From: a virus
Length of the DNA: 64,000 nucleotides
Strand: one strand, 5' to 3'
Virus record (IMG/VR): IMGVR_UViG_3300021335_000003
Each line of letters opens with the position of its first letter. Position 1 is the first letter of the stretch. The translations under genes and the position numbers were made by a program. Positions 1-28,137 of this stretch are shown here, piece after piece. The notes under the pieces are model-generated. The model did not search any database. It was not told the DNA's origin and saw only the letters and a program-made list of their open reading frames with translations.

Positions 1-1317
1 TGTAACAAAACTTCTGTCAAACGCAAATGCTTTTGGAGAGAAACCTGAACTTCGCAGAGCATACAAACCAAAGTTTGTAGCAGAGTTGGTAATTGAACAA
101 TATCCGCCTGACTGACAATAAACACCGTTGAGCAGGAAGATTTCAAAACAAGACACGATCTGTGCATAAGCATCGTTGGTTAGTCGCCACGCTGTACCAC
201 CAAATGATAGAATAGTAAAGGCGTTAGCAACCATTGATTTACCTTGTTCAGGTATCGCACCAACAACTGGATTCTCAGCCTCAATACCGTATGTCGGAAC
301 GTTGGGAGATTCAACTTTACTACCATCAATCTTAGCACCGTTCATACCTAAGAACGAAATGATCGAAGCGTTCTGAATATATGGTGAAGTAACAATAGTT
401 GGTCTTGTGTTAGGTAAGTTTGTGTAATCAGCTCTGTCTGTAATAATTGGATCGAACGGATCATCAAATGCCACTGCGTAGTCAGCTGTAATAGTTGGAA
501 TAAAGTTGTCATCAACGCCGTCACGGAAAGTAAATTCACCAAAGTAACATGCGTTACGAACACGTAGAATATCCAAGTTAGCGTTTGCAGGACGAATAAT
601 ACAACCACGCAAACCGTCGCCTTTGATAACTGTGTTATCTGGAACAATAACTGGGTTGTCTTCTGTATAGTCACCAACCGCAACTTTGATGTTTACACGT
701 TTAAAGTTAATTGTGCCATCACTGTTGTAAACTAGTCCAGAAGCAATTTGACAGGCTCTTTTAACAGTTTTAACCGGAGCACTCTGTCCATCGTTATCAT
801 CATCACCTTGTTCTTGTGAAACATAAACCACGTTACCACCAAAGATATCCGAGTCTTGGAAGAATAATTGACCATTGCCATCTGTCGCTAAGATTTGACC
901 TACGGTACCTTGTGACGGAGGCAATGTCAAGTTGTACCCTGCATCTAGTGTGTCTGGTGCTTTAATTGCCACACCGTCATCACCTGATGCTGTAAGTTCT
1001 TTAAACGTTAGTGTTTTTGCATCTTCAATATCTAAGTCATTAAACAAGTTCATACCTGCTGCTGTAAATTGAGCAGTGTCTTGTTCATTTACTCTAATAT
1101 TAATTTCTGCTGCGGCACTATCACCTTTATCAGTAATAGCAATCTCGGTATCGTTATCAAAAATTCTTCTTGTAACATCTTGTACAGTGTTATCATCACG
1201 CAGTAGGAAGATTTTACCATCTGCTGTGTTGATTGCTAATTCGCCTGATTCTAGTTGAGATACTATCGGTTGCTTACCCGCGACCGCACTACGTTTATGT
1301 TTAATTCTTGTTGCCAT
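1..1317 (-). CDS. Large virion structural/fibre protein, N-terminal 439 codons (runs off the window); paralog of the 1424..9016 protein
   Basis: Absent from the ORF track because no stop lies in the window. ATG at 1317 with AGGAGG upstream; translates MATRIKHKRSAVAGKQPIVSQLESGELAINTADGKIF... then VYVSQEQGDDDNDG..VKTVKRA..GDYTEDNP..TSPYIQN..AFT..YAQIVSCF, matching the beta-helix-like N-terminus of the 2530-aa protein. Confidence 0.85.
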   Translation of the reverse strand, partial: MATRIKHKRSAVAGKQPIVSQLESGELAINTADGKIFLLRDDNTVQDVTRRIFDNDTEIAITDKGDSAAAEINIRVNEQDTAQFTAAGMNLFNDLDIEDAKTLTFKELTASGDDGVAIKAPDTLDAGYNLTLPPSQGTVGQILATDGNGQLFFQDSDIFGGNVVYVSQEQGDDDNDGQSAPVKTVKRACQIASGLVYNSDGTINFKRVNIKVAVGDYTEDNPVIVPDNTVIKGDGLRGCIIRPANANLDILRVRNACYFGEFTFRDGVDDNFIPTITADYAVAFDDPFDPIITDRADYTNLPNTRPTIVTSPYIQNASIISFLGMNGAKIDGSKVESPNVPTYGIEAENPVVGAIPEQGKSMVANAFTILSFGGTAWRLTNDAYAQIVSCFEIFLLNGVYCQSGGYCSITNSATNFGLYALRSSGFSPKAFAFDRSFVT

Positions 1318-10425: not shown

Positions 10426-10788
10426 TTAAATAGCTGTTAAACGTAAAACTGTATCGGTTGAATCGTCTTCTAAATCCCAAGTGTAACGATTGCTATCAAA
10501 ATCTACTGCTGTTCTGTTGAATAGTTTTTTGATAACTCTGCGCACTCCGCCGGCATCAAAACCTTCGATAACCATTTCGCCTGCTGCTACACTATCAGTT
10601 GCTTTGTTAACCAAACGGCAAACTGCTGTTGCTGTAGCACCGTTGTTTGACACTGTGAACTTGTTTGTTCCTCTTTGGTCTACAATGTATGCTTGCTCGT
10701 CAATACCGCCGCCAACATATGCACGTACTGTGATATTCGTTGCGTCAGCCGGATCTCCGAAATTTCTTTTATTTACTGGACGTCCCAT
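10426..10788 (-). CDS. Conserved phage protein (MGRP-x-NK family), probably virion-associated
   Basis: 120 aa; strong SD AAGGAG; preceded by a late box and a structured leader. Confidence 0.65.
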   Translation of the reverse strand: MGRPVNKRNFGDPADATNITVRAYVGGGIDEQAYIVDQRGTNKFTVSNNGATATAVCRLVNKATDSVAAGEMVIEGFDAGGVRRVIKKLFNRTAVDFDSNRYTWDLEDDSTDTVLRLTAI

Positions 10789-10799
10789 TTGTTTCTCCT

Positions 10800-10879
10800 T
10801 TGTTACGTTCTAAGTAATACGCGGTTGGTCTTCCGCATAAGTCCTCATCTAGAGGTTCTCTCTATGACAATAGTATTTA
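10800..10879 (-). promoter_or_regulatory. Late promoter box (10874-10879) and three-hairpin 5' leader
   Basis: gaTAAATAc followed by CCUC/GAGG, UAUGCGG/CCGCGUA and UUAC/GUAA hairpins just upstream of the SD. Confidence 0.55.
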
Positions 10880-10949: not shown

Positions 10950-11167
10950 TTAATGTGATAGGTAGGACTAAGGATTACCTACAAGTGCCGTGACATATCC
11001 TGTCTACATAACTAGCACAACCTCACAATAGAATGGTTAGTTCTACTTTCTCTGCAACGCCTTGTCTCCAAGGTCTTACAGCGCCACCATAGCGTGTGAG
11101 TCAAGTTAATGCCTATGTGAAGCATCGTTTCCTTGCACTATCTAACTCGGACCGTCGTCTTTGTTAT
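10950..11167 (-). ncRNA. Candidate structured ncRNA of about 215 nt, family not recognised
   Basis: No ORF; sigma70-like promoter upstream and terminator downstream; about 10 helices with many G-U pairs and a GAGA tetraloop on the minus strand. Confidence 0.7.
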
Positions 11168-11173
11168 GTACTT

Positions 11174-11201
11174 AATATAGCATATACAAAATAAAAGTCA
11201 A
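11174..11201 (-). promoter_or_regulatory. sigma70-like promoter for the ncRNA candidate
   Basis: TTGACT-16 nt-TATATT with an extended -10 TG. Confidence 0.65.
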
Positions 11202-11206
11202 CCTCT

Positions 11207-22053: not shown

Positions 22054-23580
22054 TTAGACTGTTGCAGGTTGCGGTTGAGCTGCTGCATTGTCACTGTCCA
22101 TTTTATTAGATATAGCAGTGTCAGCAGCATCTTGAGAGGTGTCTTTTTGTTCTAGCGTCATTATTGAATTTAACAAATCCTCACGTTTTTGTTGTGGCAT
22201 GTAAGGAACAAATTTTGTTTTATCACCTTTAGGAAATAGCAGAGCTCCAAAAACTTTTTTAGCCCACTCGCTTTCAGAAAAATATTCGCCATCAGGTCCT
22301 TTATTAATCGTTTGTTCAATGGTTAATTTATCTGCTAAGAAACCTGTGCCAAATGCTCCAGCAAGTGATTCGTCTGCTGCTTTTAACAAAAAGTCAAAAC
22401 CTTGACCTAAATATCCAAAATAATCGCCCAACCAAGAGTTTTGAAGTATTTGTGCTACTAATCTTTGTACTGGAGGAAGTGAAACAACTATATAGAATAA
22501 AACATCCAATCCTTGTCCTGCAATTATGCCAAGTATTCTACCTGCTCGGTTACCAGCAAGTGCTCCTTTGGCTCCTCCTGCTATAGTGCCTACAGGTCCT
22601 ACTCCAGTGCCTACCACAGCACCACCGACTGCACCTACTCCTGTTCCAATTGTTGCTAATCCTATTTTTATTGCAGCTCTAACCCAACTAGTAAGTATTT
22701 TAATTGATTTAATATCTTTTAAAAGAGTTACTGCAAATATACCAAATTGAATAACAGCTTGACCTTGCAAAATACTATACTCTTCAGCTAATTTGCCATC
22801 TGGATCGCCTGTTTCAATTATTTCAGCTTCTACCTGTGCTAAGGCAAAACTAATACCATAAAACAACATCAACGCTGCAAGAGCTTTTCCAACTACTGCT
22901 CCTGCCTTTCCTGAGAAAGCTGCAAAATTAGAAGATTGTACCCATCTTCCTATTTTGGTATTCCCTAGTTGTTGTCCTGGTGCAATTCCTTTTTTAAATT
23001 CATCTAATGTCATAGATGTAATTTTGCGACTAATAGGATTGTTTCTAATTTTTCCTTCGATGCTTTTTGCGTCTATACCTGCATTTTTTAAAAATTTAGC
23101 TTGCTTTTTCTTAAGTGCATTTGTAATGTCTTTGGGCTTTTTTCCTTCAGCTTCAAGTTGCTCAATGTACTTTTGTAATCTAGCAGCGTCATCTCCGTCA
23201 TTTAAAGTTACAATGCTTTTTCCATCAGGCATAACGACCTTCCAACGATTGGTATCAGTTTGGAACATGCCAGGTGCTAACTTAACATTTGGAGGCACTG
23301 CTTTTGCAGTAGGAGCAGGAGTTTTTGTTCTAGGAGAACTATTTCTTCCACTGCTAGATTTAGTAGTGGTCTTGGTATCTTTAGGTTTAGGAGGAGTTGG
23401 ATTCCTCAACTGGTCTGCTTTGATATTTGCTTGATTTTTTGTTTTATGACTTGAAATCAAAACATTTGGAGTCACAGTAGTATTATACACCCCCCATGTT
23501 CTTCCATTAGGATTTTTACGTATTTCAAATTTATCTTCTAAAAGAATTTGTGATTCAAAGATTAGTTCAGACAGTTTCAT
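22054..23580 (-). CDS. Hypothetical protein with hydrophobic and glycine-zipper segments; candidate internal/ejection protein
   Basis: 508 aa; MKLSELIFESQILLE start, basic N-half, GxxxG-rich C-half; TATAAATA box 5 nt before the ATG. Confidence 0.6.
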   Translation of the reverse strand: MKLSELIFESQILLEDKFEIRKNPNGRTWGVYNTTVTPNVLISSHKTKNQANIKADQLRNPTPPKPKDTKTTTKSSSGRNSSPRTKTPAPTAKAVPPNVKLAPGMFQTDTNRWKVVMPDGKSIVTLNDGDDAARLQKYIEQLEAEGKKPKDITNALKKKQAKFLKNAGIDAKSIEGKIRNNPISRKITSMTLDEFKKGIAPGQQLGNTKIGRWVQSSNFAAFSGKAGAVVGKALAALMLFYGISFALAQVEAEIIETGDPDGKLAEEYSILQGQAVIQFGIFAVTLLKDIKSIKILTSWVRAAIKIGLATIGTGVGAVGGAVVGTGVGPVGTIAGGAKGALAGNRAGRILGIIAGQGLDVLFYIVVSLPPVQRLVAQILQNSWLGDYFGYLGQGFDFLLKAADESLAGAFGTGFLADKLTIEQTINKGPDGEYFSESEWAKKVFGALLFPKGDKTKFVPYMPQQKREDLLNSIMTLEQKDTSQDAADTAISNKMDSDNAAAQPQPATV

Positions 23581-23600
23581 ATTACTATTTATATGTTATT

Positions 23601-23677
23601 AGTTGAACTACGTTCAACTGTGTTATCGCTATCGCTCAACACGATGTTTTTTAAGGCATATGCAAAGCATATGCTTT
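23601..23677. repeat. Cluster of three short inverted repeats
   Basis: AGTTGAAC-TAC-GTTCAACT; GTGTT-N13-AACAC enclosing (ATCGCT)x2; GCATATGC-AAA-GCATATGC. Confidence 0.8.
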
Positions 23678-23681
23678 TAGT

Positions 23682-24005
23682 ATCATTCAGATTGTGAAGT
23701 CATAATTCGCCCGTTGCCGGGCGAAGGTAGCTTTTGAGCTTCATTCGAGTCGCTTCAGCCATCTTGTTAAAAGAGATTCAACTTATGTTGTCGGAGGCGG
23801 TTGACCTGTATCCCCCTACTCTAGCTTCGTCATATCAACGGAAGGCAGTTATTCCCTAACAAGCGAAAACACTTACCACGTGGTTGCTTTTTCTCAGAGC
23901 CACTATCTTTTAAAGCCTATCGTATACTTCTTCACGTGAGCATTCCACACCACCGGCCACGAGCATTACCTCGGCTGGATCTTGGAGTTTAATTAGAGCT
24001 CAATA
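23682..24005 (-). ncRNA. Candidate large structured ncRNA of about 320 nt directly downstream of the GIY-YIG gene
   Basis: No ORF of 60 aa or more; GC-richer than flanks; UUCGCCCG-GCAA-CGGGCGAA hairpin, several G-U-containing helices and a probable pseudoknot on the minus strand. Confidence 0.6.
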
Positions 24006-24011
24006 TATAGC

Positions 24012-24437
24012 CTATTTGTGTTCTAGTAGTGCCTGGCGTAATTTATTTGAACCACCAACTCTTACATTGATTATGCCATTGTAGTATTCGTCTGTTTCTA
24101 ATACTCGCCTGTCAAACTGTTCTCGTGCTTCAATGTAACTCATTTCTGCTCTGCTTTTGCAGAAGTAAAGTATTTCACGAGTAAAGTTTTTTTCGCCTAG
24201 TGTTTTTACATCTTCGTTCAGTCTATCTGAACTTCCCCAGTATTCACGCCAATCGCTTTCTTTGTAGCCTCGACGCTTGTTCTTTTTGCCTTTTAATGGT
24301 GGCTTGGTTGTTTTAAATTTTGCTAACTTCTTGCCTACGTATTTTTGTTTTGTCTTTTTGTTTGTAATTAGATATACAAACCCTTCGTATTCGTCAGGTA
24401 TTGATTCTACAGTTTTGCCTTTGTATGTCCAACTCAT
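24012..24437 (-). CDS. Small stand-alone GIY-YIG-family nuclease-like protein
   Basis: GFVYLITN....KYVGKK, YWGSS, F.REIL, E...Q, YYN motifs; no C-terminal DNA-binding domain. Confidence 0.8.
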   Translation of the reverse strand: MSWTYKGKTVESIPDEYEGFVYLITNKKTKQKYVGKKLAKFKTTKPPLKGKKNKRRGYKESDWREYWGSSDRLNEDVKTLGEKNFTREILYFCKSRAEMSYIEAREQFDRRVLETDEYYNGIINVRVGGSNKLRQALLEHK

Positions 24438-24455: not shown

Positions 24456-26111
24456 TTAAATTTGTGATTCCGTTTTTGGTTTGCCTACGTGTGATTGCCA
24501 ACCCTCACGACTAAACATTTTACTGAAATAGTCCAAGGGCCATTTGTTTAAGCCTTTGTCGTGTTCTTGTACATTGTTATACATTTGCATAAACTTGTCA
24601 ATCGATTTTTTATTTTTATTTGCTTGATTTTCGTGTGTTGATTTTTCATTACGCATTCTTGTAATGTACTCTTGTTGTTGTTCAGCTGTTGATTTTACAG
24701 GCCAACTTGCTAGGTCTTCTTTAGTCATCCAGTTGTTTGCAATATCAATCCAATTTACATCTGGAAATGCTGTGCGGTATCCTATGACACCATCCATACA
24801 GTTTGCCTTGTCATAATATTTTTGTTTTACAAGTTCTTTGTGATTTAGTTCTTCGCCAATGCGTCTCATGTCATTCCAAAAATGATTGTCGCCTTTGGGT
24901 GATAATGTGTAATGCACAGCAAGATAATCTGCTATGTCTTGGAAATAGTGATCCATTTTTTCATTGTAATAGTTTTTATCATAGTCACGTTGCAACATCC
25001 ATGCAATGTTTTTGATGCTTGCAATGATACTGACTACTGCGTTTGCTTCTAGTGGATCAACAAAACTTGCTGCCATACCAATAGCAAAACAGTTTCCAAC
25101 ATTTGGTTTTGCCAATCTACCTGGCTTCCATTTTAACTGTTTAGGCGGACGTAGATTCCTGCCTTCTACTTGTTCCAACAACCAATCTCTTGCTTCGTCG
25201 TCACTGAAGTATTCATCACTGTAAATAATACCTGTGCCTATTCTAGCATCTAAACAGATTTGGAACTGCCAGCCCATGTCTTGTCTAATACTTCTTGTGT
25301 AATTTACATATTCAGCATCTTTGTCTTTGTAACTAATAGGACATACCCAAGCACTGTTCATTTTGTTAGCAGGTGTTTGGATAAACTCATCTGTTAGTTT
25401 GCCAATCAACAACCTACCTAAACCTGTGCAGTCCATCCACAAGTCGCTGGTAACTTCTGTTCCATCTTCTAGTACAATACTGCTGATGCCGTTGTCATCT
25501 GTATTCACAGTTTCGATATGCGCAATAGTTTCCACTACGCCATATTCTTTACAAACATTTTCAATCAGCCAAGGCGCACATTTTTCTGCATCAATATGAT
25601 AAGCATAGGTTGCTGTTGCACTGATCAAATAGTTTCCGTTGTCGTCAAACGGCATCTTTCTATCTTTGAGATAATGATAACCTTCACCGTTGTGATGATA
25701 AACATCCAAGTCTGGTGCTGCGCCACTGCGATACACATCCAACCAAACATCGCTTGTTCTCAAGTCATCTGGTCCAACACTGCAAACATTTTTCCAAGTT
25801 GTTTCTTTGTTGTGCCAGTTGCTCCAATGGAACATTCTAATTACATCAGGCTCGCCTTCAGCTGTGTCAGTCCAGTTTTCCATACGATTAGCATATTTAA
25901 AAACTGCATTTGTTTCTCGCATAAAACGTTTTTCATCTACGCCTAATGCACCAAGCACACCCGGCAAGTGTGGTGTAATACTTTCACCTACACCAATTGT
26001 AGGAACCTTGTTGCTATGAATCATTTCAACTGTAGAGTTTGGAAGTTCTTTTTTTAAAAATGCACTTGTGAGTGCTCCTGCAAATCCACCACCTACAACT
26101 GTAATCTTCAT
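24456..26111 (-). CDS. Flavin-dependent (tryptophan) halogenase family protein
   Basis: VVGGGFAG, IGVGES, FK (catalytic Lys position), AYHIDA, DCTG, FVDPLEA, HY. Confidence 0.85.
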   Translation of the reverse strand: MKITVVGGGFAGALTSAFLKKELPNSTVEMIHSNKVPTIGVGESITPHLPGVLGALGVDEKRFMRETNAVFKYANRMENWTDTAEGEPDVIRMFHWSNWHNKETTWKNVCSVGPDDLRTSDVWLDVYRSGAAPDLDVYHHNGEGYHYLKDRKMPFDDNGNYLISATATYAYHIDAEKCAPWLIENVCKEYGVVETIAHIETVNTDDNGISSIVLEDGTEVTSDLWMDCTGLGRLLIGKLTDEFIQTPANKMNSAWVCPISYKDKDAEYVNYTRSIRQDMGWQFQICLDARIGTGIIYSDEYFSDDEARDWLLEQVEGRNLRPPKQLKWKPGRLAKPNVGNCFAIGMAASFVDPLEANAVVSIIASIKNIAWMLQRDYDKNYYNEKMDHYFQDIADYLAVHYTLSPKGDNHFWNDMRRIGEELNHKELVKQKYYDKANCMDGVIGYRTAFPDVNWIDIANNWMTKEDLASWPVKSTAEQQQEYITRMRNEKSTHENQANKNKKSIDKFMQMYNNVQEHDKGLNKWPLDYFSKMFSREGWQSHVGKPKTESQI

Positions 26112-26365
26112 TTTTTCTTTTTCCTTTCGTGGTTAGCCTTGCCAATATTGACAGCCCACTTGCCGCTGGCACGTATTTCGGCTAACTCCTCTTTGTATCT
26201 CTGTTTAGCCTCTTCGGCTCTTTCTCTGCATAAGGTAACTAGCTCACGTAGCTCTCTACGTATTCGTCTTTTACTACGCTCACTTGGCAAACGTTCGAAG
26301 TCTTCGCTTGCTGCCAAGTAGTCTAGTACCTTTTGCATTAATTTATCATGCGTGTCGTCTGTCAT
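26108..26365 (-). CDS. Small basic helical hypothetical protein
   Basis: 85 aa, R/K-rich; ATGA overlaps at both ends. Confidence 0.65.
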   Translation of the reverse strand: MTDDTHDKLMQKVLDYLAASEDFERLPSERSKRRIRRELRELVTLCRERAEEAKQRYKEELAEIRASGKWAVNIGKANHERKKKK

Positions 26366-28137
26366 TCTACAATATCGATATCGTTTTCATATGATGTAAA
26401 GCCATTCTCTTTGATAACTTTCATTACATGATTGACTCTACCAACAAGTTCGTCTTTGTGTGAGATGAGGAAAACATTTTTGCTACGCTCTCTACCCATC
26501 TTCTTGAGTACAGCGAGCGCATTTTCAACACCAGCAGTGTCCATACCTGAGTCAATAAGCTCGTCAATGAACAACAAGTTGATGCCTTGATACAACGATT
26601 CCCAAACATCACGGAATGCAAAACTCATGCCTAGTATCAGCCTGTTGCGTTCGCCTCTAGATAAGTTATCAAAGTCCAAGTCTTGTCCTAGTTGTGTAAT
26701 CTCAACTGACAAATCATTTTGGAATTCTACTTGATGTGGTAAGCCTAGTTTGTCTAAATAGTATGTGAGCCTATTGTTCAAGTACGCCAAGTTCTGATCA
26801 ATGATCTTTTTGCGGATGAACGAGTCTTTGTTTGTCAAAAGTTTCAGTAGAAACTCTTGATGTTCACGCAAGTTGGTAAGATCATTTACAGGTTGCCAAT
26901 CAATTTCTTGTAGTGCTGTTGTCTTCAAGTCCTCAATTTGTGCTTCGTAAGGATCTTCTTCTTGCGTTTTACTTATCAGTGTTTGTTTTAAATTATCTAC
27001 ATTGTTTCTGTGTTCATATGCTTCTTTGGCACTCTCATAAAACGTGTTAGGACGTCCGTTGATGTCACCAATTTCGTTGAGAAACTCCATAGTTGCTTCT
27101 AATTTGTCAGCAACTTCTGTTTGATAAGCAAGTGCATCACTTAATTCTTTTTGTTTTTTAGTTTCGATCTCTGCTTTCTTGTCTGCATGAAGCGTTTGAC
27201 CGCAAGTGTAACAAATAGCATCGTCAAGTTCTTTGATATCCTTTTCTGCTTTGTCAACACCTTTGGTTGCTCGCATCAATGCTGTTTCCAGTGTTGCTTT
27301 CTCTTTGTTCAAACTAGTTATACGATTATTCAATTCTGTCCAGTTGGTAAGTTTGTCGTGTGCTTCTAATTCTGCATCAATATCTAGTTTTTCTAGTTCT
27401 TCAAGTGCAGTTTGCATTCTATCTGCATCAGTTTTGCGTTTTGCAACCCAAGCACGTTGTCTTCCAGCAAGTGTTTCAATACTTTGTTCGATCTTTTTGT
27501 TACTTGCTTCTATTGCATTGATCTTTAGTGTTTCTTCTGTGATAAAGTCTTTGGTTTGTTTAACTTTTTCCTTCAACAAGTCTGCTTTTTCAGTAAGAAT
27601 GGTAATACCAAGTAGCTGTTCAATGATTGCACGTTGGTCATTTGCTCTCATACTGAGAAAAGGCTCTGTGTAAGTGTTGAGTGCAACAATATGTTTGAAC
27701 ATATCGTGACTCATATCTAACAAACTGTCAATATCTTTTTGTGTTTGACGACTATCGCCTTGTGATTCGTCAATATCTTCTTTTTGTTCGTGGTCATTTA
27801 TGTAAAACTTGAGAACATTTGGCGATCGACCACGTTCGATCCGATATTGATTGTTGCCTTTCTCAAAGTTAAGGGTAACCAACATGCCTTTGGAATTGGT
27901 CTTGTTAATAAGATTGTTCCGTTTGATGTTGGTTAGTGCTTGGCCGTACAAGGCGTAGGATAATGCATTGATTATCGTTGTTTTACCTGTACCGTTGCGT
28001 GATCCTGTATCGTCACCTCCTTGGTCTAAGTTTTCACCAAGCACAAGAGTGAGTTGCTCCTTGTTGAAGTCAACTGCTTGGGTAACATTACCCACACTCA
28101 TAAAGTTTTTTACTGTTAGGTCTTTAATTTTAATCAT
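26362..28137 (-). CDS. gp46: Recombination nuclease ATPase subunit (gp46, SbcC/Rad50-like)
   Basis: KNFMSVGN, Walker A NGTGKTT, zinc hook CYTCGQ, signature LSRGE, Walker B LLFIDE, ISH. Confidence 0.95.
   Translation of the reverse strand: MIKIKDLTVKNFMSVGNVTQAVDFNKEQLTLVLGENLDQGGDDTGSRNGTGKTTIINALSYALYGQALTNIKRNNLINKTNSKGMLVTLNFEKGNNQYRIERGRSPNVLKFYINDHEQKEDIDESQGDSRQTQKDIDSLLDMSHDMFKHIVALNTYTEPFLSMRANDQRAIIEQLLGITILTEKADLLKEKVKQTKDFITEETLKINAIEASNKKIEQSIETLAGRQRAWVAKRKTDADRMQTALEELEKLDIDAELEAHDKLTNWTELNNRITSLNKEKATLETALMRATKGVDKAEKDIKELDDAICYTCGQTLHADKKAEIETKKQKELSDALAYQTEVADKLEATMEFLNEIGDINGRPNTFYESAKEAYEHRNNVDNLKQTLISKTQEEDPYEAQIEDLKTTALQEIDWQPVNDLTNLREHQEFLLKLLTNKDSFIRKKIIDQNLAYLNNRLTYYLDKLGLPHQVEFQNDLSVEITQLGQDLDFDNLSRGERNRLILGMSFAFRDVWESLYQGINLLFIDELIDSGMDTAGVENALAVLKKMGRERSKNVFLISHKDELVGRVNHVMKVIKENGFTSYENDIDIVE

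What the first reader, a model, noticed from the sequence alone, without database searches (positions are those of the whole stretch)
23682..24437. Minimal GIY-YIG protein followed immediately by a structured RNA of about 320 nt: candidate nuclease-RNA system
Seen: about 430 nt of ORF-free, GC-richer sequence right after the TAG, the longest intergenic gap in the window. Minus-strand helices: CGAG-guaaug-CUCG extended by GCC/GGC; GUGG-CU/AG-CCAC with an A-rich loop; a GGUA..UUUC/GGAA..UGCC hairpin whose loop CUUGUUAG (23863-23856) pairs with UUAACAAG (23770-23763) as a pseudoknot; CGUU/GACG; GGGGG/CCUCC; CAAC-auaa-GUUG; UGAAG/CUUCA enclosing UUCGCCCG-GCAA-CGGGCGAA. The 141-aa protein has only the catalytic-type domain plus a very basic arm (KFKTTKPPLKGKKNKRRGYK) and none of the DNA-recognition domains of Seg/I-TevI homing enzymes. 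Inference, by analogy with HEARO/OMEGA RNAs next to IscB/TnpB: an RNP in which the RNA scaffolds or guides the nuclease. Alternative: an RNA primer for an R-loop replication origin.
Basis: partly seen in the sequence, partly recalled or inferred. Interest (0 to 1): 0.82.

Follow-up and report, generated by a model that had tools for sequence, protein, structure and literature searches.

The report
Twin-box phage RNA beside nuclease gene
The gene-free stretch behind a small nuclease gene of this uncultured marine T4-like phage encodes a real, intricately folded RNA of about 350-420 bases that is in no RNA catalogue. It carries one 7-letter word twice. It does not depend on the nuclease, and its job is unknown.

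Summary
Positions 23581-24011 are the longest ORF-free gap in the window, are richer in GC, and encode on the minus strand a conserved structured RNA. In 24 relatives 95% of the cells of the proposed structure form pairs, against 36-47% when the partners are slid, and 7 pairs show compensatory changes. Rfam 15 has no match.

The nuclease-RNA reading is not supported. The RNA follows the GIY-YIG gene in 66/66 and 101/103 related contigs, but that is conserved gene order (gp46 - small ORF - GIY - RNA). The same RNA family occurs without any GIY-YIG gene in three other phage lineages. Five cultured phages carry the GIY-YIG homologue with no RNA, and two of them (Melnitz, phiN3) keep the "basic arm".

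The notable feature is two single-stranded 7-nt words that flank a GNRA hairpin (window: GAAUGAA and GAAUGAU). They differ between phages but stay identical within each RNA: 70/72 type-B sequences, at least 10 word changes on the tree. I found no complementary partner in cis or within about 10 kb.

This scan has already met the same family on other DNA ("Twin-box structured RNA"); I re-tested its claims here. Best reading: an autonomous phage ncRNA that displays a bivalent specificity word for an outside partner. The function is unproven.

The parts
24012..24437 (-). 141-aa stand-alone GIY-YIG protein (SegE-type domain only); a syntenic neighbour of the RNA
   Evidence: Pfam PF19835, E 4.9e-33, covering residues 3-123; phrog_447. 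Motif residues are invariant in 7 homologues.
23650..24024 (-). Core of the twin-box structured RNA (type A); its conserved 5' word overlaps the last codons and the stop of the GIY gene
   Evidence: nhmmer with the type-A profile matches 24030-23650, E 2e-140. Covariation. The 5' word GAACAYAAnUAGGYU is shared with type B and with the GIY-less loci.
23937..24002 (-). 5' domain closed by the stem UGAGC (23998-24002) / GCUCA (23937-23941); it encloses the hairpin GCCGAG..CUCG..GC (23956-23975)
   Evidence: 3 of 5 pairs change on both sides: UA/CG 12:12, AU/GC 19:5, GC/AU 19:3.
23694..23935 (-). Large closed domain: GUGAAG (23930-23935) pairs with CUUCAC (23694-23699)
   Evidence: Six pairs, five of them invariant and one unpaired in 2 of 24 sequences, found by RNAalifold; 98.6% paired.
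23880..23903 (-). Hairpin GUGG/CCAC with an A-rich loop; the loop CUCUG may pair with UAGAG downstream (pseudoknot 1)
   Evidence: GUGG/CCAC alternates with GCGG/CCGC and UGGG/CCCA. The pseudoknot pairs are invariant.
23763..23863 (-). Candidate pseudoknot 2: CUUGUUAG (23856-23863) with UUAACAAG (23763-23770)
   Evidence: 99% paired; three pairs change on one side only, and most of those changes are wobble-compatible.
23793..23816 (-). Hairpin GGGGG/CCUCC with an AGGUCA-containing loop
   Evidence: The 20-mer inside it is invariant and recovered 70 related contigs. GU alternates with AU at one pair.
23779..23790 (-). Variable-length peripheral hairpin (minimal form here)
   Evidence: It is replaced by unrelated hairpins of 30-60 nt in relatives.
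23740..23746 (-). Twin box 1: GAAUGAA, preceded by ACUC, single-stranded in the model
   Evidence: Model R1, built from type B, covers 23676-23777 at E 0.0047.
23706..23725 (-). GCAA-capped hairpin between the boxes
   Evidence: One compensatory CG to UA change. The type-B counterpart is GGAACC-GUAACA-GGUUCC.
23682..23688 (-). Twin box 2: GAAUGAU, preceded by AUCU; 6 of 7 letters identical to box 1
   Evidence: Type-A relatives carry GAAUAAU twice or GAAUGAU twice.
23656..23674 (-). Terminal hairpin GCAUAUGC-UUU-GCAUAUGC (weak terminator-like, no U run here)
   Evidence: Conserved, with loop variation and one compensatory pair.
23601..23642 (-). Two small conserved hairpins (GUGUUGAGCGAUAGCGAUAACAC; AGUUGAACGUAGUUCAACU); a possible 3' extension of the RNA module
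   Evidence: Shared by types A, B, L073, L190 and L332; the second covaries freely.
23586..23593 (-). T4-type late promoter box TATAAATA for the next gene (508-aa ORF, 22054-23580)
   Evidence: Read from the sequence. The consensus is from established T4 biology.

Best explanation
The gap encodes an autonomous structured non-coding RNA of about 375-425 nt. It belongs to a modular, uncatalogued family of aquatic phage RNAs that this scan calls the 'twin-box RNA'. Shown: the fold is conserved and specific to this strand. The family has interchangeable 5' and central modules: type A here, type B in most relatives, and a Polynucleobacter-1-like module in one relative. It has a constant 3' domain in which two single-stranded 7-nt words flank a GNRA-capped hairpin. 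The two words change often between phages but stay identical to each other. The RNA moves between unrelated phage backbones without the GIY-YIG gene. Inferred: the fold serves to present two copies of one specificity word. These most likely base-pair with two copies, or two sites, of an outside nucleic acid (a host or rival-phage RNA or DNA), so the RNA would act as a bivalent decoy, sponge or clamp. Alternatively the words bind a symmetric partner. The GIY-YIG nuclease is a conserved neighbour downstream of gp46, not a required partner.
For: Structure. No known family. Twin boxes: type A has GAAUAAU twice or GAAUGAU twice, and the window has GAAUGAA/GAAUGAU. In type B 70/72 unique sequences have identical 7-mers, in 8 variants. 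Further variants are AGAUAAU (L073), ACAGAAA (L190) and ACAGGAA (L199). On a tree of 73 type-B RNAs built without the box columns, box 1 changes at least 10 times and box 2 at least 12 times; 10-11 of 11 independent contrasts go the same way in both boxes and none go the opposite way. One family: the 5' word, the ACUC-box1 and AUCU-box2 contexts and the 3' hairpins are shared, and model R1 (built from type B) hits every type-A locus tested and L073 at the expected place, with E from 0.005 to 0.4. Independence from GIY. No cis partner.
Against: No transcription data exist, and the RNA ends are inferred. No complementary partner has been found, so 'outside partner' is an argument by elimination. 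Within type A the core is so conserved that several helices, pseudoknots included, never vary. In the window the two boxes differ at position 7. Inside the T4-like lineage the RNA is always next to the GIY gene, so a lineage-specific partnership cannot be excluded. Anonymous candidates in large virus RNA screens (PMC10690425) may already include this motif.
Confidence: 0.6

Rival explanations
1. Nuclease-RNA system: the RNA binds the minimal GIY-YIG protein and scaffolds or guides it, with the 7-nt words as guide-like determinants.
For: The RNA starts at the stop codon of the gene in 66/66 type-A and 101/103 type-B contigs with enough upstream sequence. The protein lacks any DNA-binding domain. 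The scaffold does carry short variable words.
Against: The RNA occurs without GIY in three other phage lineages. GIY occurs without the RNA in five isolates, and the basic arm is conserved in two of them, Melnitz and phiN3. The linkage is explained by synteny behind gp46. The words are 7 nt, internal and duplicated.
Confidence: 0.08
2. Cis-acting element of the polycistronic transcript, such as a 3'-UTR stabiliser, a processing platform or a conformational switch. The two identical boxes would pair in turn with one shared partner to control read-through into the downstream late gene.
For: There is no terminator between the GIY gene and the RNA. The module is always followed by hairpins and a promoter plus gene. 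Identical boxes are what mutually exclusive pairings to one strand would give. Weinberg et al. 2010 (PMC2864571) rated Polynucleobacter-1 as probably cis-regulatory.
Against: No anti-box exists in cis. No third column follows the box changes, and there is no consistent G-U-tolerant complement. The downstream genes are unrelated between lineages, and here the next gene has its own late promoter 5 nt upstream of its start codon.
Confidence: 0.13
3. A self-assembling 'ornate' RNA like GOLLD, ROOL or OLE, which builds homo-oligomeric particles. The twin words would be contact points.
For: It is large, carried by phages, multi-domain with GNRA loops and variable peripheral hairpins, and of unknown function, as for the RNAs in PMC12286853.
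Against: There is no sequence or model similarity. Identical, non-palindromic words cannot pair with each other, so identity is not explained.
Confidence: 0.08
4. A DNA-level element: a replication origin or R-loop primer, a recombination hotspot or a mobile-element remnant, with the boxes as direct repeats.
For: The first 350 nt are swapped as cassettes between close relatives (types A, B, C). Assemblies often break just after the GIY gene. The boxes are 7-nt direct repeats.
Against: Many conserved G-U pairs make the fold strand-specific. No variant has lost the segment between the boxes. No recombinase is linked. No skew signal lies at the element.
Confidence: 0.05

Closest known systems
Polynucleobacter-1 RNA motif (Rfam RF01718; Weinberg et al. 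2010, PMC2864571)
   Same: In relative L073 a Polynucleobacter-1 match (71.8 bits, gathering score 37) starts at the GIY stop codon and forms the 5' module of an RNA. That RNA continues into a type-A-like centre and a twin-box 3' domain (AGAUAAU twice). Both are aquatic and of unknown function.
   Different: The window's RNA does not match RF01718 even at E 10. The Rfam model is 141 nt and does not cover the twin-box domain. It is at most one interchangeable module of the family.
GOLLD (RF01998), ROOL (RF03087) and OLE: large ornate RNAs, often in phages or prophages (PMC12286853)
   Same: Large, multi-domain, phage-borne non-coding RNAs with GNRA loops and variable peripheral stems, and no known function.
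   Different: No model match. This RNA is smaller (about 0.4 kb). Twin identical words have not been described for those RNAs, as far as I know.
HEARO / omega-RNA with IscB, and TnpB (OMEGA systems)
   Same: A structured RNA lies directly beside a small nuclease gene, with a conserved scaffold and a variable part.
   Different: In OMEGA systems the RNA and the nuclease always travel together and the guide is a terminal segment of about 16-20 nt. Here the RNA and the nuclease occur apart, the nuclease is GIY-YIG, and the variable part is a duplicated internal 7-mer.
Seg and I-TevI free-standing GIY-YIG homing endonucleases of T4-like phages
   Same: The protein has a SegE-type GIY-YIG catalytic domain with the motif residues intact.
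   Different: It has no DNA-binding or linker domains. It is a fixed syntenic gene behind gp46 in more than 160 contigs rather than a sporadic insertion. It falls in phrog_447, small proteins mislabelled 'NAD synthetase'.

Membership tests
Twin-box structured RNA (informal family of this scan, unpublished) | Two identical 7-nt single-stranded words, one on each side of a GNRA-type hairpin, in the contexts ACUC-word and AUCU-word | tested here: met
   Window: GAAUGAA (23740-23746) and GAAUGAU (23682-23688), 6 of 7 identical, in the right contexts. Type-A relatives are 7 of 7 identical.
Twin-box structured RNA (informal family of this scan, unpublished) | Similarity of the 3' domain to other members by a covariance model | tested here: met
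   R1, built only from type-B and GIY-less members, hits 23676-23777 over its full length at 25.5 bits, E 0.0047 in 136 kb. The score is modest but the position is exact, and the same holds in the five other type-A loci tested (E 0.006-0.16) and more weakly in L073 (E 0.39).
Twin-box structured RNA (informal family of this scan, unpublished) | The words covary for identity across members | tested here: met
   70/72 type-B sequences; at least 10 changes on the tree; 10-11 of 11 independent contrasts concordant.
Polynucleobacter-1 (RF01718) | Reaches the Rfam gathering score | tested here: not met
   No hit in the window at gathering score or at E up to 10. Met only in relative L073.
RNA-guided nuclease system of the OMEGA/HEARO type | RNA and nuclease gene co-inherited wherever either occurs | tested here: not met
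   RNA without GIY: L181, the L190 group, L332. GIY without RNA: Melnitz, S-SRM01, phiN3, P-HM1, S-CAM7.
RNA-guided nuclease system of the OMEGA/HEARO type | A terminal variable guide long enough to specify a target (about 16 nt or more) | tested here: not met
   The only fast-changing unpaired segments are the two internal 7-mers. The other variable part is a hairpin.
RNA-guided nuclease system of the OMEGA/HEARO type | Physical RNA-protein complex and RNA-dependent cleavage | not testable with these tools
   Needs biochemistry.
GIY-YIG nuclease superfamily, SegE-type domain (PF19835) | Pfam score above the cut-off, and GIY / YIG / Arg / Glu / Asn motif residues present | tested here: met
   114.4 bits against a cut-off of 25. 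F20, Y22, Y33, G35, R55, E103 and N120 are invariant in 7 homologues.
Seg/I-TevI-type homing endonuclease | A C-terminal DNA-binding module and sporadic, mobile distribution | tested here: not met
   The domain fills residues 3-123 of 141. The gene sits at a fixed position behind gp46 in the related contigs.
Group I intron, tmRNA, tRNA, GOLLD/ROOL | Match to the family model | tested here: not met
   cmscan and ARAGORN are negative. The flanking genes are intact: the halogenase matches its profile from end to end.

The most novel reading that the evidence does not exclude
The twin-box RNA is a new kind of programmable phage RNA. A conserved knotted scaffold presents two copies of a fast-evolving 7-nt 'address' that base-pairs with a repeated or dimeric target in the host or in a rival phage, as a bivalent guide, sponge or clamp. 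It may work with a protein not yet identified. In the T4-like lineage that protein could still be the neighbouring GIY-YIG enzyme.
Probability: 0.15. Interest if true: 0.85.

Novelty: new variant of a known kind. Interest (0 to 1): 0.6.

Why it matters
Large structured RNAs with conserved tertiary folds are rare, and almost all that have been studied turned out to be ribozymes, riboswitches or assemblies with unusual biology. This family is abundant in uncultured marine T4-like phages: my pattern scans recovered about 70 type-A and more than 100 type-B contigs. It also moves between phage backbones and is absent from Rfam. Two words that are selected to stay identical, rather than complementary, fit no standard RNA mechanism that I know of. 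That makes this a concrete, testable puzzle: swap one box, or both. For the original question the result is a useful negative. A small nuclease gene next to a structured RNA is not in itself evidence of an RNA-guided nuclease.

Tried and rejected
- Rfam at gathering score and at E up to 10 on the window and 30 related loci gave only Polynucleobacter-1 in L073 and freshwater-2 elsewhere.
- tRNA and tmRNA, because the relative Melnitz is reported to carry a two-piece tmRNA: ARAGORN was negative.
- Group I intron with its homing gene: no model hit, no room for a 5' half, and the neighbouring genes are complete.
- Small ORF inside the RNA: a 20-codon ORF runs from the AUG of AAGAUGGCU through the GCAA hairpin. 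The one hairpin variant changes two codons non-synonymously while keeping the pair, so I rejected it.
- Cis anti-box: no exact or G-U-tolerant complement at a consistent position, and no third column follows the boxes. UUGUGU at about -50 belongs to its own covarying hairpin.
- Complement of the word in flanks of about 3-14 kb: 78 hits against 65 for control words.
- Boxes as stop codons (URA at positions 4-6): refuted by ACAGAAA and ACAGGAA.
- Boxes as anticodon-loop complements: type A would need a pyrimidine at position 37.
- Boxes as start-codon mimics: most type-A boxes have no AUG.
- Extended direct repeat around the boxes: weak (p about 0.10 and 0.03).
- blastn of types A, B and L332 against 50,697 phage records: no match.
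- R1 on five whole isolate genomes: only chance-level hits, and the Melnitz hit is antisense inside a CDS and has no boxes.
- The genome contigs pattern scan was mostly chance; 3 of its 77 hits are real.
- A profile comparison of type A against type B (nhmmer) finds only the 3' end.

Full report
**What is there**

The window is part of an uncultured marine T4-like myophage. The closest isolate is the OM43 phage Melnitz (Kyanoviridae), whose GIY-YIG homologue is 68% identical.

On the minus strand the order is:
- gp46/SbcC-like gene (26362-28137)
- an 85-aa ORF
- a tryptophan-halogenase gene (24456-26111)
- a 141-aa GIY-YIG gene (24012-24437)
- 431 nt without any ORF of 50 aa or more (23581-24011)
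- a 508-aa ORF whose ATG lies 5 nt after a T4-type late box, TATAAATA

The gap is the longest in the window. Its GC is 0.42-0.47 against about 0.30-0.40 around it. Rfam 15 gives nothing there, even at E 10, and ARAGORN finds no tRNA or tmRNA. A single-sequence fold is no better than shuffled sequence (z -0.3 and -2.0), so only comparison can decide.

**Is it a structured RNA?**

IMG/VR holds hundreds of contigs with a GIY-YIG protein 61-99% identical to this one. In almost all with enough sequence, 450-570 nt of ORF-free DNA follow the gene.

The first 350 nt fall into sequence types that cannot be aligned with each other:
- type A: the window and 22 of the 80 loci
- type B: 33 loci
- smaller types

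I aligned 24 non-redundant type-A sequences.
- 95.2% of cells pair, against 36-47% when the 3' partners are slid by 1-3 columns.
- Seven pairs change on both sides; 0 of 500 shuffles reach this.
- Compensatory changes support UGAGC/GCUCA (CG or UA 12:12, plus two more pairs), GUGG/CCAC and the GCAA hairpin.
- The pseudoknot CUUGUUAG/UUAACAAG shows mostly wobble-compatible one-sided changes, so it is compatible but not proven.
- CAAC-auaa-GUUG is the minimal form of a hairpin that is 30-60 nt long and unrelated in sequence in relatives. This is a typical peripheral expansion.
- Many conserved pairs are G-U, so the fold belongs to the strand of the GIY gene.

Type B is more diverse and shows abundant compensatory changes by eye.

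**Twin boxes**

Notes of earlier agents of this scan said that look-alike RNAs carry one 7-letter word twice. I tested this.
- In the window, GAAUGAA (23740-23746, after ACUC) and GAAUGAU (23682-23688, after AUCU) flank the GCAA hairpin.
- Type-A relatives have GAAUAAU twice or GAAUGAU twice.
- Of 72 unique type-B sequences, 70 carry the same 7-mer at both sites, in eight variants: ACAUGAA, ACAUAAU, ACGUGAA, ACAUAAA, ACAUGAU, GUAUGAA, ACAUGAG and others.
- Further loci add AGAUAAU, ACAGAAA and ACAGGAA.
- On a tree of 73 type-B RNAs built without the box columns, the word changes at least 10 times at box 1 and at least 12 times at box 2. In 10-11 of 11 phylogenetically independent contrasts both boxes change the same way, and never the opposite way.

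Both boxes lie in stretches that are unpaired in the consensus structure. Box 1 is inside the large closed domain and box 2 is just outside its closing stem.

I found no partner.
- There is no complement, even allowing G-U, at a consistent place in the RNA.
- No third alignment column follows the changes.
- The complement is not enriched in the roughly 3-14 kb of flanks held for each locus (78 against 65 hits for control words).

**One family, modular**

Types A and B share:
- the 5' word around the GIY stop codon (GAACAYAAnUAGGYU)
- the box contexts
- a GNRA-type hairpin between the boxes
- the 3' tail
- two small 3' hairpins

A covariance model built only from type-B and GIY-less 3' domains (R1) hits the window at 23676-23777 over its full length (25.5 bits, E 0.0047). 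It hits the five other type-A loci I tested (E 0.006-0.16) and L073 (E 0.39) at the equivalent place, and none of the GIY loci of isolates.

In L073 the RNA starts with a bona fide Polynucleobacter-1 match (RF01718, 71.8 bits). It continues into a type-A-like centre and a twin-box 3' domain. That Rfam motif therefore looks like one interchangeable 5' module of this family.

**Does it belong to the nuclease?**

Within the lineage the linkage is complete. 66 of 66 type-A contigs and 101 of 103 type-B contigs with enough upstream sequence have the GIY gene directly before the RNA. But the whole neighbourhood is syntenic: gp46 - small ORF - optional halogenase - GIY - RNA.

Outside the lineage the two separate.
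- RNA without GIY: L181 and the L190/L276/L278/L279 phage carry a type-B-like RNA with twin boxes near a small-terminase gene, with no GIY-YIG and no gp46.
- RNA without GIY: L332, a 23.8-kb contig binned with a Crocinitomicaceae MAG, carries an A/B hybrid RNA with ACAUGAA twice next to a ClpP-like gene.
- GIY without RNA: in Melnitz, S-SRM01, phiN3, P-HM1 and S-CAM7 the next gene follows the GIY homologue within about 20-150 nt or overlaps it.
- R1 finds nothing credible in those five genomes.

The 'very basic arm' lies inside the Pfam SegE_GIY-YIG match and is conserved in RNA-less Melnitz and phiN3. The catalytic motif residues are invariant, so the protein is probably an active nuclease, but nothing ties it to the RNA.

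**Mechanism**

Shown:
- a conserved, strand-specific, modular fold
- two exposed words kept identical through many changes
- mobility of the RNA module between phage backbones

Inferred: selection for identity, not complementarity, with no cis partner, is most simply explained if both words contact the same kind of outside partner. That could be two copies or two sites of a nucleic acid, or a symmetric protein. The RNA would then be a bivalent decoy, sponge or clamp whose 'address' evolves quickly.

I put about 0.6 on 'autonomous ncRNA independent of the nuclease'. Within that, I put only about one third on the base-pairing version. Rivals are a cis-acting switch or processing platform (0.13), an RNP with the GIY-YIG protein (0.08), a self-assembling ornate RNA (0.08) and a DNA-level element (0.05).

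**Novelty**

There is no Rfam family, and blastn finds no match in 50,697 phage records. I found no paper describing it. A 2023 screen of IMG/VR lists over ten thousand anonymous candidates that might include it (PMC10690425). Within this scan the family has been reported repeatedly on other DNA as 'Twin-box structured RNA'. This window adds another type-A member and, among the loci gathered here, three contexts without the GIY gene. It also adds a tree-based count of concerted box changes and model-based evidence linking types A and B.

Noticed in passing
window 10786-10857 (-): Rfam freshwater-2 RNA (RF02980), 51.6 bits against a gathering score of 49.9. It lies beside a further ORF-free stretch at 10954-11206.
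   Followed up: no
window 684-1075 (to 1423 if only ORFs of 80 aa or more count): The second-longest ORF-free gap of the window (392 nt). It has no Rfam match at gathering score and no hit with the twin-box profiles.
   Followed up: partly
window 24456-26111 (-) and loci L001-L151: The tryptophan-halogenase gene (PF04820, E 6e-78) is an optional cassette. It sits between the 85-aa ORF and the GIY gene in only a minority of syntenic relatives (for example L001, L009, L011, L075, L111, L133). In the others the GIY gene follows the small ORF directly.
   Followed up: partly
loci L004, L012, L023, L024, L029, L038-L040, L047, L054-L057, L063, L067, L068, L072, L077, L078: Many IMG/VR contigs end 0-150 nt after the GIY stop codon. 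The likely cause is that co-occurring phage strains share the gene but carry non-alignable RNA types, which breaks assemblies.
   Followed up: partly
window 22054-23580 (-): The 508-aa ORF after the RNA has no Pfam or PHROG match and a long Gly/Ala-rich hydrophobic centre. It is only 25-41% identical, often over its C-terminal part alone, in otherwise close relatives, so it is a fast-evolving late gene.
   Followed up: no
L351 and L355 (PBPT01000016.1, 335 kb; PBPT01000082.1, 153 kb): Two contigs binned into a 'Candidatus Neomarinimicrobiota' Red Sea MAG carry GIY (71%) plus a type-B RNA, and one of them (L355) also carries gp46. They look like T4-like phage DNA mis-binned into, or infecting, that MAG.
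   Followed up: no
L190:1700-1897 (-): In the GIY-less phage the 65-aa ORF that runs into the RNA contains ...TEHK, close to the GIY protein's C-terminal LLEHK, and the DNA shares CTAGAACA with the T4-like loci. The RNA module seems to have moved together with the last codons of the GIY gene, or its 5' end or promoter overlaps them.
   Followed up: partly
window 23601-23642 (-): The two mini-hairpins after the RNA, the subject of a separate first-stage note, are conserved in types A and B and in the GIY-less loci. They therefore travel with the RNA module rather than with the downstream gene.
   Followed up: partly
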